From a virus (taxonomy: Duplodnaviria; Heunggongvirae; Uroviricota; Caudoviricetes), in IMG/VR virus record IMGVR_UViG_2917886563_000006: a stretch of DNA of 18,870 nt; one strand, given 5' to 3'. The position numbers and the translations under genes were made by a program. The first letter of the stretch is position 1. Every line of letters starts with the position of its first letter. The notes under the pieces are model-generated. The model saw only the letters and a list, made by a program, of their open reading frames with translations, was not told where the DNA came from and ran no database searches. Shown one piece after another: positions 3,542 to 15,019 of this stretch.

Positions 3542-4128
3542 GCGATCACCATTTTGCATGGTTTAATCGCCATGCCGGGAGCCAGTTCAAAATCGGAGTC
3601 GCACTGATTTCCCCACATATCCCACCCGGTCACTTTGTCGCGGCTAAATAACTCACAGCGCGGCACGTCGCCAAGCAACTTAGCTAACATGTCTCTTACG
3701 ATCGGTGGTTTTGCACTGTGCTCCATTCTCGGTGCGGTAAAGTGCTGGCATATTGAAGCGTCCATTCTCTCAGGTAACCGCCCTCGAACGGCAAACAAGC
3801 AATCCTCGCTATTTGCCCGGGTCATATGCCCCATTCCGATCGCACTGTTGCCTTTGTGCTTATTGGTTTTGTGCCAAGTAAAGCCTTTCATAGTCATCAA
3901 CCTGAATCCCCACGCCTCAATTACCTTTAGCGCTTCGGCTGGCTGTGTCGGCACCCACCACATCGCTAACAAGCAAGATTCTGGATCCGCTAAATCCCAT
4001 ACTGGCAGTCGGCAAATGTCCTGAACATTCATAACATCGTATTTATGTCCAGCACCGCGATTGCCATCGTTGGCTTTGTCGCGATATTGCCATGGCGGAT
4101 CTGCGTAAATAAGTTGGTATTTGTTCAT
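3538..4128 (-). CDS. DNA N6-adenine methyltransferase, DPPW-motif (MT-A70/Dam-like family), orphan (no cognate nuclease seen)
   Basis: 196-aa ORF with N-terminal [10 protein letters not shown] (catalytic motif IV of N6-adenine methyltransferases); occupies the position of lambda ninC between ninB and ninD. Confidence 0.8.
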
Positions 4129-4565
4129 TCAGTTTTATCTCCCCATCTCGCTTTCCACTCCAGAGCCAGTCGCGCTTCGTCTGACCACTTAACGCCATGT
4201 TCTGTACCGAATGCCTGTATAAGCTCTAATAGCTCCGCAAATTCGCTTACACGCATCCTGCTGGTTGACTGGCCTATTACCACAAAGCCATTCCCGGCAA
4301 GGTTAGGAACAACGTCTTGCTGCTTTAATGCTGCGGTAAACACACACTTCCAGCTTTCTGCATCCAGCCAGCGACCATGCCATTCAACCTGACGAGAGAC
4401 GTCACCAAGGCAAGCCCAAAGCTTTCGATTCTGGTCTAAGCTGCGGTTGCGTTCCTGAATGGTTACTACGATTGGTTTGGTTGGGTCTGGAAGGATTTGC
4501 TGGATAGCTTGAATGGCGTTCTGCTGATGGATGGGGCTTCTTAGTTCAAACGTTAGTTTCCTCAT
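4125..4565 (-). CDS. ninB: NinB (Orf recombination mediator)
   Basis: 146-aa ORF MRKLTFELRSPIHQQNAIQAIQQILPDPTKPIVVTIQERNRSLDQNRKLWACLGDV... matching lambda NinB as recalled. Confidence 0.9.
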   Translation of the reverse strand: MRKLTFELRSPIHQQNAIQAIQQILPDPTKPIVVTIQERNRSLDQNRKLWACLGDVSRQVEWHGRWLDAESWKCVFTAALKQQDVVPNLAGNGFVVIGQSTSRMRVSEFAELLELIQAFGTEHGVKWSDEARLALEWKARWGDKTE

Positions 4566-4782
4566 GGGATGAACTCCAGTGTGCGATGTTAAATTCCCAT
4601 TTAATTACCTTTGCATACCCAATTTTGAACCCATCAATACCTATCCACCGCTTGCCACTCCAATAAGCTGTACCACTTTGCTTGAAATGATGTGGATGCT
4701 TAGATTGAGTGGTCACTGTTACAGGTAAATATGGCTTCGGGTATTCCCCATTCCCTGGATAACCAGATTTAATTCTGCTCAT
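4546..4782 (-). CDS. Hypothetical protein (78 aa)
   Basis: ORF whose ATG overlaps the stop of the upstream membrane-protein gene (ATGA) and whose 3' end overlaps ninB by 20 nt; no recognisable motif. Confidence 0.4.
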   Translation of the reverse strand: MSRIKSGYPGNGEYPKPYLPVTVTTQSKHPHHFKQSGTAYWSGKRWIGIDGFKIGYAKVIKWEFNIAHWSSSHEETNV

Positions 4783-7952: not shown

Positions 7953-8183
7953 TTAAGCGGCCATTAATTCAGGCCAGATGCTTTCCCAATCAACCGGATG
8001 AAGGTCTTTGCGAGTCACTTCACCATTGCTGAACCTCTCAATCAGAACACAAAGTGCTGCGCCCAATTCATGATTACGGCTAAGTGCTTTCCTCAAATAG
8101 CCGATAGAAGTTCCGCACTTGGTGGCAAATTCTCTCTGCTCTTCCAGTGAAAGGGAGTTCAGATACAAGCGGAGTTCTTCCAT
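7953..8183 (-). CDS. cro: Cro-like repressor (HTH), divergent from the repressor gene
   Basis: 76-aa ORF with HTH-like segment EQREFATKCGTSIGYLRKALS; AGGAG RBS; transcribed divergently from the CI-type repressor across the operator region. Confidence 0.7.
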   Translation of the reverse strand: MEELRLYLNSLSLEEQREFATKCGTSIGYLRKALSRNHELGAALCVLIERFSNGEVTRKDLHPVDWESIWPELMAA

Positions 8184-8291
8184 TTGCTATCTCCTTCCCG
8201 TTGTTGAATAAGATGAGTTTACCTGTAGGTAAAAAGCAAATCAATACCCATAGGTTATTTACCGGCAGGTAATCAAAGATAGAATTAAATC
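8184..8291. promoter_or_regulatory. Right operator/promoter region (oR with pR toward cro and pRM toward cI)
   Basis: 14-bp palindromic sites TTACCTGTAGGTAA (8219-8232) and TTACCGGCAGGTAA (8259-8272), with a degenerate site between; candidate pR on the - strand (TTGATT 8244..8239, TAAACT 8221..8216); candidate pRM -10 TAGAAT (8280-8285) ending 6 nt before the cI ATG. Confidence 0.65.
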
Positions 8292-8978
8292 ATGGATAAA
8301 TACGAACAAAGACGACTAAGGCTGATAGAGATAAGAGACCGATTCTGTAATGGAAAGGCCTCAGAGTTGGCTCGTCGAATAGAAAGGGAACCATCATACG
8401 TTTCCAGAATGCTGTATCCGGAAGGAAAAAGCGGAAAAAAACGCATTGCTGACGATATGATGGAACTAATTGAAAAATCTTTTAATCTCCCACGCGGATG
8501 GATGGACATGCTTGCAGATGGTAAAGCTGGAGCTACGGACCATCTTGAGTTTGCGGGTAACGTTCGTGCGGGTTTTGTTCCGGTAATTGGTGAAGCCGTT
8601 TTGGGAGTTGATGGCTCAGTGGATATGATTGAATTCAGATCCGGTTGGTTAAGCATCTACAGCGGCGATAAAGATGCTTACGGTCTGAAGGTTAAGGGTG
8701 ACAGCATGTGGCCAAGGATTCAGTCAGGAGAATATGTTGTTATTGAACCAAATACGCCAGTACATCCAGGTGATGAAGTCTTTGTAAGGACCAAAGACGG
8801 TCACAACATGATAAAGATCATGAACAAAACAAGAGACGGTGATTATCAGTTTAGTAGCATAAACAGTGATCACCGCCCAATCACTCTTCCTGTTGAAGAA
8901 GTTGATAAAATGCATTTTGTTTCAGCTATTGTGAAACACACCAGGTACGTAGACCAGGACGATCTGCCAAAAGTTTGA
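8292..8978 (+). CDS. cI: CI-type prophage repressor (N-terminal DNA-binding domain + C-terminal S24/LexA-like autopeptidase domain)
   Basis: 228-aa ORF; C-terminal GDSMWPRIQSGEYVVIEPN (Ser nucleophile motif) and downstream Lys typical of S24 peptidases; position and divergent arrangement with cro. Confidence 0.9.
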   Translation: MDKYEQRRLRLIEIRDRFCNGKASELARRIEREPSYVSRMLYPEGKSGKKRIADDMMELIEKSFNLPRGWMDMLADGKAGATDHLEFAGNVRAGFVPVIGEAVLGVDGSVDMIEFRSGWLSIYSGDKDAYGLKVKGDSMWPRIQSGEYVVIEPNTPVHPGDEVFVRTKDGHNMIKIMNKTRDGDYQFSSINSDHRPITLPVEEVDKMHFVSAIVKHTRYVDQDDLPKV

Positions 8979-8992
8979 GGATAAAGCAGCAA

Positions 8993-9289
8993 ATGTTTAT
9001 ACCCGGCATAGTAGTCGCTGTTGTAATCATCTGCTTCATATGGGCAAAGTTATCTCCTGTAAGCTCTAAGCATACAGCTGAACTCATGAGGAAGAAGCAT
9101 CTTATACATGAGGCAGAATCGATAATTAAAAAGTTCAAAGGCATGTCATACGACGACATGTCATCAGAGCAGATTGCTATGTATAAATGCGCCATTGAGC
9201 GCCTTGACTACTTAAACGGACTCAAACCCAAACACACCCCAGTAGAATCAAAATTGCCGCAATGGCCAAGCAATCCAAATAGCTTCTGA
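8993..9289 (+). CDS. Hypothetical small membrane protein (98 aa) in the rex slot downstream of cI
   Basis: ATG at 8993 (ORF track starts at a TTG at 8975 overlapping the cI stop); N-terminal hydrophobic helix FIPGIVVAVVIICFIWA then a charged domain; followed by a strong terminator. Confidence 0.6.
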   Translation: MFIPGIVVAVVIICFIWAKLSPVSSKHTAELMRKKHLIHEAESIIKKFKGMSYDDMSSEQIAMYKCAIERLDYLNGLKPKHTPVESKLPQWPSNPNSF

Positions 9290-9300
9290 CATCTCCTTTC

Positions 9301-9323
9301 AGCCCGCAAAGCGGGCTTTTTTA
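9301..9323 (+). terminator. Intrinsic terminator ending the immunity (cI) transcript
   Basis: AGCCCGC-AAA-GCGGGCT hairpin followed by TTTTTT. Confidence 0.75.
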
Positions 9324-9342
9324 TATCAATCCAAAAAATTAA

Positions 9343-9427
9343 TTACCTGAAAATTCAAGCAGGTAAACTCTCACATCAATTTTATTTACCTACAGGTATA
9401 GACAGAGGTTTTACCTGTAGGTATATT
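9343..9427. promoter_or_regulatory. Left operator/promoter region (oL/pL)
   Basis: Operator-type palindromes TTACCTACAGGTAT (9387-9400) and TTACCTGTAGGTAT (9411-9424), same family as oR; candidate pL -35 TAGACA (9399-9404) and -10 TATATT (9422-9427) with 17-bp spacer, upstream of nutL and N. Confidence 0.6.
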
Positions 9428-9467
9428 TTAAGCCATCAGCAGGACGCACTGACCACCATGAAGGTGA

Positions 9468-9498
9468 CGCTCTTAAAAATTAAGCCCTGAAGAAGGGC
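9468..9498 (+). promoter_or_regulatory. nutL (boxA CGCTCTTAA, boxB GCCCTGAAGAAGGGC)
   Basis: Matches lambda nutL boxA/boxB as recalled; located between pL and N. Confidence 0.8.
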
Positions 9499-9608
9499 AG
9501 CATTCAAAGCAGAAGGCTTTGGGTAGCGCGAAATGCAGCTGCAAGACAGCAACCGTGGAGATAAGCATCACGGCGCGTTACTCAAAGCTAACTGACAGGA
9601 GAATCCAG

Positions 9609-9935
9609 ATGGATGCACAAACACGCCGCCGCGAACGTCGCGCAGAGAAACAGGCTCAATGGAAAGCAGCAAATCCCCTGTTGGTTGGGGTAAGCGCAAA
9701 ACCAGTTAACCGCCCTATTCTCTCGCTGAATCGCAAACCGAAATCACGAGTAGAAAGCGCACTGAATCCGATAGACCTTACAGTGCTGGCTGAATACCAC
9801 GAACAGATTGAAAGCAACCTGCAACGTATTGAGCGCAAGAATCAGCGCACATGGTACAGCAAGCCACGCAGTGAAATGGGGGTGACTTGTGTTGGTCGCC
9901 AGAAAATGAAATTAGGCAGCAAACCACTTATTTGA
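9609..9935 (+). CDS. N: Antitermination protein N
   Basis: Start at the internal Met (MDAQTRRRERRAEKQAQWKAANPLLVGVSAKPVNRPIL...) with AGGAGA RBS; matches lambda N including the arginine-rich motif. The ORF-track upstream extension is rejected because it would span nutL. Confidence 0.95.
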   Translation: MDAQTRRRERRAEKQAQWKAANPLLVGVSAKPVNRPILSLNRKPKSRVESALNPIDLTVLAEYHEQIESNLQRIERKNQRTWYSKPRSEMGVTCVGRQKMKLGSKPLI

Positions 9936-9943
9936 GGTGAGAT

Positions 9944-10030
9944 ATGGAAGAAGAATTTGAAGAGTTCGAAGAGCATCCTCAGGATGTGATGGAACAATAC
10001 CAGGACTATCCGTATGACTACGACTATTGA
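9944..10030 (+). CDS. Possible small acidic peptide (28 aa), overlapping the ral start
   Basis: Hand-translated MEEEFEEFEEHPQDVMEQYQDYPYDYDY; GAGG 5 nt upstream; very acidic and aromatic. Could be non-coding. Confidence 0.25.
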   Translation: MEEEFEEFEEHPQDVMEQYQDYPYDYDY

Positions 10031-14317: not shown

Positions 14318-15019
14318 ATGCCCAAAATTACCGGTGTTCTAGTGAGCCACCATGTGTTCGATATAAAAAAAGACATGGCTAATGGTTCATTCCCGAAAAC
14401 ATTATTTCCAGGCGCGACATTTCAGATGGTGGTTGACAATGATGTTGTCAATAATAATACGTTGGACTGGAGTGTTGTCACCAATGCGGGAGACAATTCG
14501 CTGACTGTAAATCAGGACGGCGTGGTGTCATTTTCAAATGATATTGATGAAAGTTGCATTGGTAAAACATTTGTTATTTTTGCGAAGGATAAAGCCACAG
14601 GGAAAAATGTGTCATCTTATTTAATTAAACCTTATCGCTTCTTTAAACCTCGTACCGCAACGTCGGACAGATTTTACGATGCATTGTTTTGGATTGAGGA
14701 TAAAAAAGGGACTGTCCCGGCACGACGCGATATCAATAATGTCCCTTTCGATGAACTGACGGGAGAAATGTTTCATGATGTAAAACGTGAAGTGAATTCC
14801 GGGCTTTTTCAGGAATGGGGATTTTTACTGTTTAGTGGGTGGACTAATCCTGTACGTGGTGATATTGGTAGTCTCGAATCAGAAATTTTCACTTTAGAAA
14901 ATGACAGTATATTTATATCGACAGTCAACTCCCTCCCATACTCCAGAGATCTCCATGATGATATGGACTCCCAGTCTGCACAGGCTGTAGCGTTTTACGG
15001 GGAATCTGTTGTTTCCTGA
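14318..15019 (+). CDS. Hypothetical protein (233 aa), cargo of the inverted-repeat-bounded AT-rich cassette
   Basis: Strong AAGGAG RBS 6 nt upstream of ATG; long AT-rich leader (14160-14317, sampled windows about 23-32% GC) and coding region about 40% GC versus a visibly higher-GC phage backbone; no signal peptide or transmembrane segment; no recognisable catalytic motif. Confidence 0.75.
   Translation: MPKITGVLVSHHVFDIKKDMANGSFPKTLFPGATFQMVVDNDVVNNNTLDWSVVTNAGDNSLTVNQDGVVSFSNDIDESCIGKTFVIFAKDKATGKNVSSYLIKPYRFFKPRTATSDRFYDALFWIEDKKGTVPARRDINNVPFDELTGEMFHDVKREVNSGLFQEWGFLLFSGWTNPVRGDIGSLESEIFTLENDSIFISTVNSLPYSRDLHDDMDSQSAQAVAFYGESVVS

What the first reader, a model, noticed from the sequence alone, without database searches (positions are those of the whole stretch)
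8975..9325. Small membrane protein in the rex slot, co-transcribed with the CI repressor
Directly after the repressor gene, before a strong terminator and oL/pL, is a 98-aa ORF with one N-terminal transmembrane helix and a charged cytoplasmic domain. In lambda this position holds rexA/rexB, the classic lysogen-expressed abortive-infection system, and in other lambdoid phages it holds other exclusion genes. A gene here is expected to be expressed from pRM in the lysogen, which is the logic of a prophage-encoded defence or superinfection-exclusion function. This protein resembles neither RexA nor RexB.
Basis: partly seen in the sequence, partly recalled or inferred. Interest (0 to 1): 0.65.

Follow-up and report, generated by a model that had tools for sequence, protein, structure and literature searches.

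The report
Candidate prophage exclusion protein beside repressor
The small membrane-protein gene after the prophage repressor is real, and relatives sit exactly where phage P22 keeps its superinfection-exclusion gene sieA, so it is a good untested candidate for a new protein that stops other phages infecting the lysogen.

Summary
Window 8993-9289 (+) encodes a 98-aa protein with one N-terminal transmembrane helix. It starts 14 nt after the cI stop codon and is followed by a strong terminator (9301-9323) and then oL/pL. It is gp49 of phage mEp043 (PHROG 10450, function unknown). It has no Pfam, NCBIfam, PADLOC, PDB or fold match.

It belongs to a small enterobacterial prophage family with three clades.
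- Clades 1 and 3 always lie directly after closely related cI genes. In clade 3 the gap is only 3-5 nt.
- Clade 2 always converges on ejection-protein gene 16 of P22-like prophages, which is the sieA position.

In some clade 2 prophages the family ORF replaces sieA exactly. The annotated sieA promoter, the ribosome-binding site and the GTG start are 98% conserved, and homology ends right after the start codon.

The protein evolves far faster than its neighbours (dN/dS 0.27-0.71 against 0.02 for cI at equal dS), yet a conserved core persists.

Best reading: a lysogen-expressed inner-membrane protein that excludes superinfecting phages, probably at DNA entry. This is analogous to SieA and HK97 gp15 but not homologous to either. 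The function is inferred and has not been demonstrated.

The parts
7953..8183 (-). cro-like repressor gene (76 aa), divergent from cI
   Evidence: ORF. It matches the mEp043 gp51 position and is 88-91% identical to the cro genes of clade 3 modules.
8220..8271 (.). oR region with 12-bp operator palindromes TACCTGTAGGTA (8220-8231) and TACCGGCAGGTA (8260-8271)
   Evidence: Regex scan. The same palindrome recurs at oL.
8258..8285 (+). pRM-like promoter (TTTACC-16-TAGAAT) ending 6 nt before the cI ATG, so the cI transcript has little or no leader
   Evidence: Consensus scan. The role is inferred by analogy with lambda pRM.
8292..8978 (+). cI repressor (228 aa, S24 peptidase C-terminal domain)
   Evidence: Pfam PF00717 at 1.4e-17 and PHROG 4. 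100% identical to mEp043 gp50.
8977..8981 (+). GAGGA Shine-Dalgarno-like sequence overlapping the cI stop codon, 11-12 nt before the ATG (a long spacing)
   Evidence: Read from the sequence. Clade 3 has GAGGA inside the end of cI, 8 nt before GTG.
8993..9289 (+). The gene in question: a 98-aa single-pass membrane protein (mEp043 gp49 family, PHROG 10450). TM helix at residues 2-20, then a helix to about residue 48, a second helix at 58-76 and a C-terminal tail with invariant W91-P92.
9301..9323 (+). Intrinsic terminator (7-bp GC-rich stem, AAA loop, six T), the tIMM equivalent that ends the cI operon
   Evidence: dG -12.6 kcal/mol, z -3.45.
9344..9427 (+). oL/pL: long palindrome TACCTG-N10-CAGGTA (9344-9365), operators at 9387-9398 and 9412-9423, and promoter TAGACA-17-TATATT (9399-9427)
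   Evidence: mEp043 has a putative PL annotated at the equivalent place.
9609..9935 (+). Lambda-type antiterminator N, the first gene of the pL operon, which marks the far edge of the slot
   Evidence: Pfam PF11438 at 1.5e-26 and PHROG 271.

Best explanation
The gene encodes a small inner-membrane protein. A 1-3-residue N-terminus faces the periplasm, one transmembrane helix follows, and a helical domain of about 75 residues faces the cytoplasm. The repressed prophage makes it together with CI from the maintenance promoter. Its most likely job is superinfection exclusion. From the inner membrane it would interfere with the DNA-delivery step of incoming phages, most plausibly P22-like phages, whose ejection proteins gp7, gp20 and gp16 build the conduit across the envelope.

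Shown: it is a real protein family under selection; it lies at fixed positions in two prophage slots known to be expressed in lysogens; one clade replaces sieA ORF-for-ORF; it evolves quickly.

Inferred: transcription from pRM, the topology, the anti-phage function, and the step that is blocked.
For: 1. Real gene.
- Relatives at 29-43% identity give profile E-values of 1e-33 to 1e-38 and share 11 invariant residues.
- dN/dS is 0.05-0.3 between close alleles.
- The start codon varies only between ATG and GTG.

2. Linked to the repressor.
- Clade 1 follows cI in the window, mEp043, E. coli OkiPb01675 and 27 of 27 IMG/VR loci.
- All 52 of 5426 complete E. coli genomes that carry the gene also carry this cI. 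No record showed this cI without it.
- Clade 3 follows a cI that is 77-90% identical in 5 of 5 contigs, with a gap of only 3-5 nt.
- Synonymous divergence is alike in cro, cI and the gene, so the module diverged in place.

3. The sieA position.
- In 31 of 32 clade 2 loci the gene converges on P22 gene 16, with 1-17 nt between the stop codons. The exception, L003, is a rearranged remnant.
- P22 and L005/L048/L066 are 96-99% identical from the sieA/family start codon upstream. That stretch includes the annotated sieA promoter, the TAAGGAGG ribosome-binding site and the GTG start. Homology stops right after GTG.
- P22 sieA is expressed from the prophage and blocks DNA injection (PMC10883804).
- No SieA homologue or SieA motif is present in any family-bearing locus held (window, L001-L012, L014, L016).

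4. Fast evolution.
- With cI 99% identical, the protein is only 72-87% identical. With cI about 89% identical, it is 35-43% identical.
- Non-synonymous to synonymous counts are 13:5 against 1:13 for cI (Fisher P = 3e-4) and 32:26 against 5:43 (P = 1e-6).

5. Architecture.
- One TM helix, no Lys/Arg before it and 2-6 within 15 residues after it, in 19 of 19 members.
- This is the same build as HK97 gp15, a proven exclusion protein of the inner membrane (PMC3594210).

6. Known hotspot.
- The cI-N interval is a known hotspot that holds rexAB in lambda and bstA in BTP1 (PMC8585504).

7. Carriers.
- 7 of 9 sampled E. coli prophages with the cI-linked gene are P22-like.
Against: - There are no expression, localisation or phenotype data for any member.
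- There is no homology to any known exclusion or defence protein. hhalign gives probability below 1% to SieA, gp15 and HkaS. PADLOC, Pfam, NCBIfam, PDB and fold searches are empty.
- Position is circumstantial. Both slots also carry cargo of other kinds, including ClpP-like, Panacea-domain, YobH-like and secreted proteins.
- Fast evolution also fits relaxed constraint.
- The ribosome-binding site in the window is poorly spaced (11-12 nt). NCBI's pipeline leaves the gene uncalled in 39 of the 40 E. coli genomes listed.
- mEp043 and one E. coli carrier are siphoviruses, so a P22-specific target is not required by the data.
- One prophage carries both paralogues (L019 and L062), so they need not be redundant.
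- The link with gene 16 may reflect adjacency only.
Confidence: 0.48

Rival explanations
1. Abortive infection. The membrane protein is a dormant effector, comparable in role to RexB. An infecting phage triggers it, and it depolarises or permeabilises the membrane, killing the cell before progeny are made.
For: It lies in the same slot as lambda rexAB and BTP1 bstA, both abortive-infection systems (PMC8585504). It is a membrane protein expressed in the lysogen. It evolves quickly.
Against: It is a single gene with no constant partner that could act as a sensor. Neighbours differ between clades and between loci. It has only one TM helix, and its conserved residues lie in the soluble domain, not in the membrane segment. 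One clade replaces sieA, which blocks entry and is not an abortive system. There is no RexA/RexB or PADLOC match.
Confidence: 0.15
2. A lysogenic-conversion gene unrelated to phages. The small membrane protein would tune a host envelope protein such as a sensor kinase, transporter or protease, to the benefit of the lysogen.
For: Many small single-pass proteins of enterobacteria regulate membrane proteins (established knowledge). Both slots carry assorted cargo. No known defence signature was found.
Against: The family is confined to prophage immunity and sieA positions. No copy was seen outside a lambdoid or P22-like prophage. The one odd locus, L003, is a rearranged remnant. The exact swap with sieA points to an equivalent role. 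Protein change roughly 10-35 times faster than cI at equal synonymous divergence is more typical of conflict genes.
Confidence: 0.2
3. A phage life-cycle regulator. A membrane-anchored factor would act with the immunity systems, for example by affecting repressor stability, antirepressor action or FtsH-dependent CII turnover. That would explain why it travels with cI, or sits in the mnt-arc-ant immunity region.
For: It has been co-inherited with one cI/cro lineage for a long time and is probably translationally coupled to cI. The other clade sits in the immI region, often downstream of mnt.
Against: Several clade 2 copies have no mnt upstream and use the sieA promoter. A partner of a 99% conserved repressor would not be expected to change 13-28% of its residues. 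The same cI/gene module works in P22-like, HK97-like and lambda-like prophages with different late and lysogeny genes.
Confidence: 0.1
4. A spurious ORF, or the true gene is the antisense ORF 8926-9195 (89 aa).
For: NCBI's pipeline does not call the ORF in most E. coli genomes. The antisense ORF shares its third-codon positions, so the synonymous/non-synonymous count of clade 1 is the same in that frame (10:7).
Against: Only the sense frame stays open and conserved across three clades at saturated synonymous divergence. Antisense frames are broken in the other clades, with the longest open stretch 20-80 aa and never full length. The start codon, TM helix and invariant residues are all conserved.
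Confidence: 0.02

Closest known systems
P22 SieA (superinfection exclusion protein A; types A, B and C)
   Same: Expressed from the prophage. An inner-membrane protein. Clade 2 of the family occupies the same site and orientation, convergent with ejection-protein gene 16. In some prophages it uses the same promoter, ribosome-binding site and GTG start. SieA's conserved motif is also predicted to face the cytoplasm (PMC10883804).
   Different: SieA is 162-200 aa with 3-4 TM helices and the motif FxRYPxEAxxFNK. This family is about 100 aa with one TM helix and lacks the motif. hhalign probability is 0.7%, and tblastn and the motif search found nothing. The window copy lies after cI, not beside gene 16.
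HK97 gp15 (moron-encoded exclusion protein, YebO-like)
   Same: A small protein with an N-terminal TM helix that has no preceding positive charge, followed by a charged helical tail. It is expressed from the prophage and followed by its own terminator. It blocks DNA entry at the inner membrane (PMC3594210).
   Different: 62 aa against 98 aa. No sequence relation (hhalign 0.7%). gp15 lies in the tail operon with its own promoter. This gene rides on the cI operon and has a larger conserved soluble domain.
Lambda RexA/RexB
   Same: Same genome position: after cI, before tIMM and oL/pL, and transcribed with cI in the lysogen. RexB is an inner-membrane protein.
   Different: Rex is a two-gene abortive-infection system with a four-TM RexB. 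Here there is one gene with one TM helix and no Pfam RexA/RexB match.
BstA (BTP1 and relatives)
   Same: A single gene directly downstream of the prophage repressor that shares its promoter and defends the lysogen (PMC8585504).
   Different: In that paper BstA localises to sites of phage DNA replication and acts by abortive infection, with its own aba self-immunity element. It is not described there as a membrane protein. No PADLOC or Pfam hit links it to this family.
HK620/HK630 HkaS
   Same: A small membrane protein of unknown function in the same cI-tIMM slot.
   Different: 122 aa, with three hydrophobic segments by eye (not computed), and unrelated (hhalign 0.3%).

Membership tests
PHROG 10450 / mEp043 gp49 family (function unknown) | Full-length sequence match to the family profile | tested here: met
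   E = 7.8e-55 over residues 1-98 of 98. 97% identical to mEp043 gp49.
Lambda RexA/RexB | Sequence membership in the RexA or RexB families | tested here: not met
   No Pfam family at E <= 1.
Lambda RexA/RexB | Two-gene operon with a four-TM RexB | tested here: not met
   Only one ORF lies between cI and the terminator. It has one hydrophobic segment.
Lambda RexA/RexB | Position after cI, before tIMM and oL/pL | tested here: met
P22 SieA | Sequence homology to SieA type A, and the FxRYPxEAxxFNK motif shared by all three types | tested here: not met
   hhalign probability 0.7%. tblastn with P22 SieA found nothing in any family locus. The motif is absent.
P22 SieA | 160-200 aa with 3-4 transmembrane helices | tested here: not met
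   97-114 aa with a single hydrophobic segment in 19 of 19 members.
P22 SieA | Location between genes 16 and 9 of a P22-like prophage | tested here: not met
   The window copy follows cI. The feature is met by the clade 2 paralogues only.
P22 SieA | Blocks DNA injection by P22-like phages, with escape mutations in gp16 and gp20 | not testable with these tools
   Needs plating, K+ efflux and escape-mutant experiments as in PMC10883804.
HK97 gp15 / YebO | Sequence similarity to gp15/YebO | tested here: not met
   hhalign probability 0.7%.
HK97 gp15 / YebO | Small protein with an N-terminal single TM helix and a charged C-terminal tail | tested here: met
   This is a resemblance in architecture only.
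Moron (independent promoter-gene-terminator unit) | Own promoter and own terminator | tested here: inconclusive
   The terminator is present. There is no room for a promoter in the 14-nt gap after cI, or in the 3-5 nt gap in clade 3, so the gene rides on the cI operon. Clade 2 copies do have their own upstream promoter region, the sieA one.
Known anti-phage defence systems (PADLOC-DB 2.0) | Match to any defence-system protein model | tested here: not met
   No families at E <= 10.

The most novel reading that the evidence does not exclude
This is a new, sequence-unrelated class of superinfection-exclusion protein. It would be a 100-residue single-pass protein whose cytoplasmic helical domain disables the ejection-protein conduit of P22-like phages. 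It would be interchangeable with SieA at the level of the ORF and mobile between the two immunity regions (after cI in immC, beside gene 16 in immI). It would be locked in an arms race with gene 16, with which it is swapped as one unit.
Probability: 0.35. Interest if true: 0.65.

Novelty: new member of a known kind. Interest (0 to 1): 0.55.

Why it matters
Prophage genes that block other phages shape which phages can spread in E. coli and Salmonella, and they matter for phage therapy. Only a few proteins that block DNA entry are known (SieA, gp15, Imm), and none is understood in molecular detail.

This family is a compact new candidate. It has a clear soluble domain, 11 invariant residues, and natural variants that range from near-identical to 30% identical. 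Clade 1 is in 52 and the N7-type paralogue in 57 of 5426 complete E. coli genomes, and most annotations miss the cI-linked copy.

Because one clade replaces sieA exactly, the published SieA assays and escape-mutant logic can be applied to it directly. If it targets gp16 or gp20, it would give a second, simpler probe of how P22-like phages build their DNA conduit.

The result also shows that cargo can occupy both the cI-downstream slot and the sieA slot. That helps in reading other unknown genes found at those positions.

Tried and rejected
Searches that found nothing:
- Pfam, NCBIfam and PADLOC scans of the protein, and Pfam on 15 members.
- A profile search of PDB sequences, where the best E-value was 0.7.
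- An AlphaFold2 model (pLDDT 77.9: a long helix, a helical hairpin and a tail) searched against BFVD and PDB with Foldseek. No match had E < 1.
- An Rfam scan of the whole window.

- The afdb50 fold library was not available.

Host of clade 3:
- Genome-contig scans with A3 and P0033 found nothing.
- Clade 3 is also absent from complete E. coli genomes and from the phage collection. Its host genus is therefore unknown.

Ideas tested and rejected:
- Homology to SieA, HK97 gp15 and HK620 HkaS.
- One copy per prophage. A single IMG/VR contig holds both a clade 1 and a clade 2 copy (L019 and L062).
- HkaS also occupying the sieA slot.
- The antisense ORF 8926-9195 as the real gene.

Not resolved:
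- The exact source genome of the window was not found. The best E. coli match covers 61%, so the virion type of this particular prophage is unknown.
- Correlation between family divergence and gp16 divergence exists, but it cannot be separated from physical linkage.

Full report
**1. What is in the window**

The window is the early region of a mosaic lambdoid prophage. Its best overall matches are HK544, HK446 and HK97, each covering about 40%. It ends with a lambda-type integrase and the host gene ybhC.

The immunity region is 98.8% identical to that of coliphage mEp043. On the + strand it reads:
- cro at 7953-8183 (minus strand);
- oR with 12-bp palindromes at 8220 and 8260;
- a pRM-like promoter at 8258-8285;
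- cI at 8292-8978 (S24 peptidase);
- the ORF at 8993-9289;
- a terminator at 9301-9323 (dG -12.6 kcal/mol, z -3.45);
- oL/pL at 9344-9427, with the same palindromes;
- a lambda-type N gene at 9609-9935.

The start is the ATG at 8993, not the TTG at 8975. Every distant relative begins M-[YFW]-I-[PS] there. Close relatives have either ATG or GTG at this codon.

**2. It is a real gene**

The ORF is annotated as hypothetical gp49 in mEp043 and matches PHROG 10450, of unknown function, at 7.8e-55. NCBI's pipeline leaves it uncalled in 39 of the 40 E. coli genomes listed, so its reality had to be tested.
- An exhaustive phmmer search found relatives at 33-43% identity. Profile searches raised the family to about 30 distinct proteins with E-values of 1e-33 to 1e-51.
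- Eleven positions are invariant across 19 diverse members: I3, K34, I38, E40, A41, M56, C66, A67, L71, W91 and P92.
- Near-identical alleles show 10 synonymous and 7 non-synonymous polymorphic sites, P = 5e-4 against neutrality.
- Close pairs in the other clade give dN/dS of 0.05-0.20.
- The antisense ORF 8926-9195 shares wobble positions and gives the same 10:7 count. It is not open in the other clades, so it is rejected.

**3. The protein**
- All 19 members have one hydrophobic stretch at residues 1-21 and no second one.
- None has a Lys or Arg before that stretch. All have 2-6 within the next 15 residues.
- By the positive-inside rule, the N-terminus faces the periplasm and the rest faces the cytoplasm. 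This is an inference; no topology predictor or experiment was available.
- AlphaFold2 with a 15-sequence alignment gives moderate confidence (pLDDT 77.9). It predicts a helix at 5-48 that continues out of the membrane, a second helix at 58-76 and an extended tail.
- The invariant residues lie almost entirely outside the membrane segment. The soluble domain is therefore likely the working part.
- Nothing similar was found in Pfam, NCBIfam, PADLOC, PDB sequences, PDB folds or BFVD.

**4. Where the family lives**

This is the main result. The family has three clades, and each has a fixed address.

*Clade 1* (at least 96% identical to the window):
- It has the cro<-|cI->gene->N layout in the window, mEp043, E. 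coli OkiPb01675 and 27 of 27 IMG/VR loci.
- The gene and this cI allele were each found in 52 of 5426 complete E. coli genomes. No record showed the cI without the gene.

*Clade 3* (35-43% identical):
- It has the same layout in 5 of 5 contigs.
- The gene starts 3-5 nt after the cI stop, and the Shine-Dalgarno sequence lies inside cI.
- That spacing leaves no room for a separate promoter or terminator.

*Clade 2* (29-37% identical):
- It lies in P22-like prophages in 31 of 32 loci.
- There it converges on ejection-protein gene 16, with only 1-17 nt between the stop codons. It sits between genes 16 and 9 and often downstream of mnt.
- This is the position of sieA in P22.
- The exception, L003, is a rearranged prophage remnant next to T6SS genes.

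**5. An exact swap with sieA**
- P22 and three clade 2 loci (L005, L048, L066) are 96-99% identical over 422-723 bp that end at the sieA/family start codon.
- The shared stretch contains the annotated sieA promoter, the TAAGGAGG ribosome-binding site and the GTG start. Similarity stops one base after GTG.
- The other boundary lies about 100 bp into gene 16. The exchanged unit is therefore most of gene 16 plus the exclusion gene.
[quoted passage not shown] Escape mutations map to gp16 and gp20 (PMC10883804).
- That paper also reports that only 22 of 66 P22-like phages carry sieA, which leaves room for other cargo at the site.
- None of the family-bearing loci held at that stage contains a SieA homologue or its motif.
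- The family is not SieA. It has one TM helix instead of three or four, is about 100 aa instead of 162-200, and hhalign probability is 0.7%.

**6. Rate of evolution**

Between the window and clade 3 modules, cro is 88-91% identical and cI 77-90% identical. The family protein is only 35-43% identical. Synonymous divergence is alike in the three genes, so the module diverged in place and was not pieced together from separate parts.

| Comparison | dS in cI | dS in the family gene |
|---|---|---|
| L071 vs L073 | 0.09 | 0.08 |
| L071 vs L074 | 0.37 | 0.59 |

Comparisons with the window are saturated for all three genes.

dN/dS is 0.27-0.71 for the family gene against 0.02 for cI. Non-synonymous to synonymous counts are 13:5 against 1:13 (Fisher P = 3e-4) and 32:26 against 5:43 (P = 1e-6). 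A conserved core with fast change around it fits a protein in conflict with phage partners. Relaxed constraint cannot be excluded.

**7. Carriers**
- Of nine E. coli prophages sampled with the cI-linked gene, seven are P22-like, one has an HK97-type head and one is a Rac-like remnant.
- mEp043 itself is a lambda-like siphovirus that also carries cor.
- The 16-9 slot of five P22-like carriers is empty, holds only mnt, or holds unrelated cargo.
- One IMG/VR prophage carries both a clade 1 and a clade 2 copy (L019 and L062).
- The N7-type paralogue is present in 57 of 5426 complete E. coli genomes.

**8. Interpretation**

The best-supported reading is a lysogen-expressed inner-membrane protein that excludes superinfecting phages, most likely at DNA entry and most plausibly phages with P22-type ejection proteins.

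The argument rests on position. The family occupies two independent slots known to be expressed in lysogens, and in one case shares the sieA promoter and start codon. It also rests on architecture, which is like HK97 gp15, and on evolutionary rate. The cI-N interval is already known as a hotspot that holds rexAB and bstA (PMC8585504).

None of this is a functional test. The rivals are abortive infection, a host-directed conversion function, and a role in immunity regulation. The spurious-ORF reading is refuted.

**9. Novelty and verdict**

The kind of thing is familiar: a prophage accessory gene in the rex slot that probably serves in exclusion. The protein family itself is uncharacterised and unrelated to known exclusion or defence proteins.

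Its presence in both the cI-downstream slot and the sieA slot did not appear in the papers searched here. That search was limited: it covered SieA, HK97 gp15, rex-slot hotspots and mEp043, with four papers opened.

I rate it a new member of a known kind, with interest 0.55. It is a well-founded and directly testable candidate, but not a surprise in principle.

Noticed in passing
window 8993-9289; E. coli RefSeq genomes: NCBI's annotation pipeline leaves this conserved gene uncalled in 39 of the 40 E. coli genomes listed, so about 630 nt between cI and N are unannotated. The N7-type paralogue is called as a hypothetical protein.
   Followed up: partly
L015 2862-3224 (+) in phage P22; also L005 4821-5186, L088 7687-8052, L048, L051, L065, L066, L068: A 121-aa ORF with an HExxH motif (AHECAH) is 99-100% conserved immediately upstream of, and divergent from, sieA in P22 and the family gene in E. 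coli prophages. It is not annotated in the P22 RefSeq record and overlaps the annotated sieA promoter region.
   Followed up: partly
L076 4420-4788 (phage HK620 hkaS; also HK630): HK620 carries an unrelated 122-aa membrane protein of unknown function (three hydrophobic segments by eye) in the same slot between cI and tIMM. It is another uncharacterised membrane protein co-transcribed with a repressor.
   Followed up: partly
L019 and L062 (IMG/VR contig IMGVR_UViG_2563366933_000009, 38.1 kb): One P22-like prophage carries both paralogues, one after cI and one beside gene 16, at about 37% identity. This suggests they have different specificities and are not redundant.
   Followed up: no
window 9944-10030 (+): A 28-codon, very acidic and aromatic ORF (MEEEFEEFEEHPQDVMEQYQDYPYDYDY) with a GAGG ribosome-binding site lies between N and ral and overlaps the ral start. 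Whether it is coding was not tested.
   Followed up: no
window 14318-15019 (+): A 233-aa protein with an invasin D4 (Ig-like) domain (Pfam 1.6e-8) lies in the leftward early/accessory region near xis-int. This is unusual cargo for that position.
   Followed up: no
L016 3960-3996 (phage N7, upstream of its family gene): An inverted repeat with 11-bp arms (GCTGCATGATT ... AATCATGCAGC) lies about 20 nt before the ribosome-binding site of the N7 paralogue, replacing the P22-type sieA promoter region. It could be an operator or a terminator of the upstream genes.
   Followed up: no
L085-L088 and L017 (16-9 slot of E. coli P22-like prophages): The slot between gene 16 and the tailspike gene is a cargo hotspot. 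It holds a YobH-family protein, a 122-aa protein with a signal-peptide-like N-terminus found in three prophages, a ClpP-like protease, a Panacea-domain protein, a Rap1a/Tai-family protein and an IS903B, or it is empty.
   Followed up: partly
window 9324-9608 compared with mEp043 (L001 about 4100-4567) and IMG/VR loci L018-L044: The distance from the family gene to N varies by up to about 160 bp among otherwise near-identical immunity modules. The mEp043 match spans about 158 bp more than the window. A mosaic junction therefore lies within the oL/pL-nutL leader.
   Followed up: no
window 16382-18870: A lambda-type integrase (arm-binding domain, Pfam 7e-33) is followed by the host gene ybhC, so this prophage sits at the lambda-type attachment site. 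No complete E. coli genome in the collection holds this exact prophage; the best match covers 61%.
   Followed up: partly
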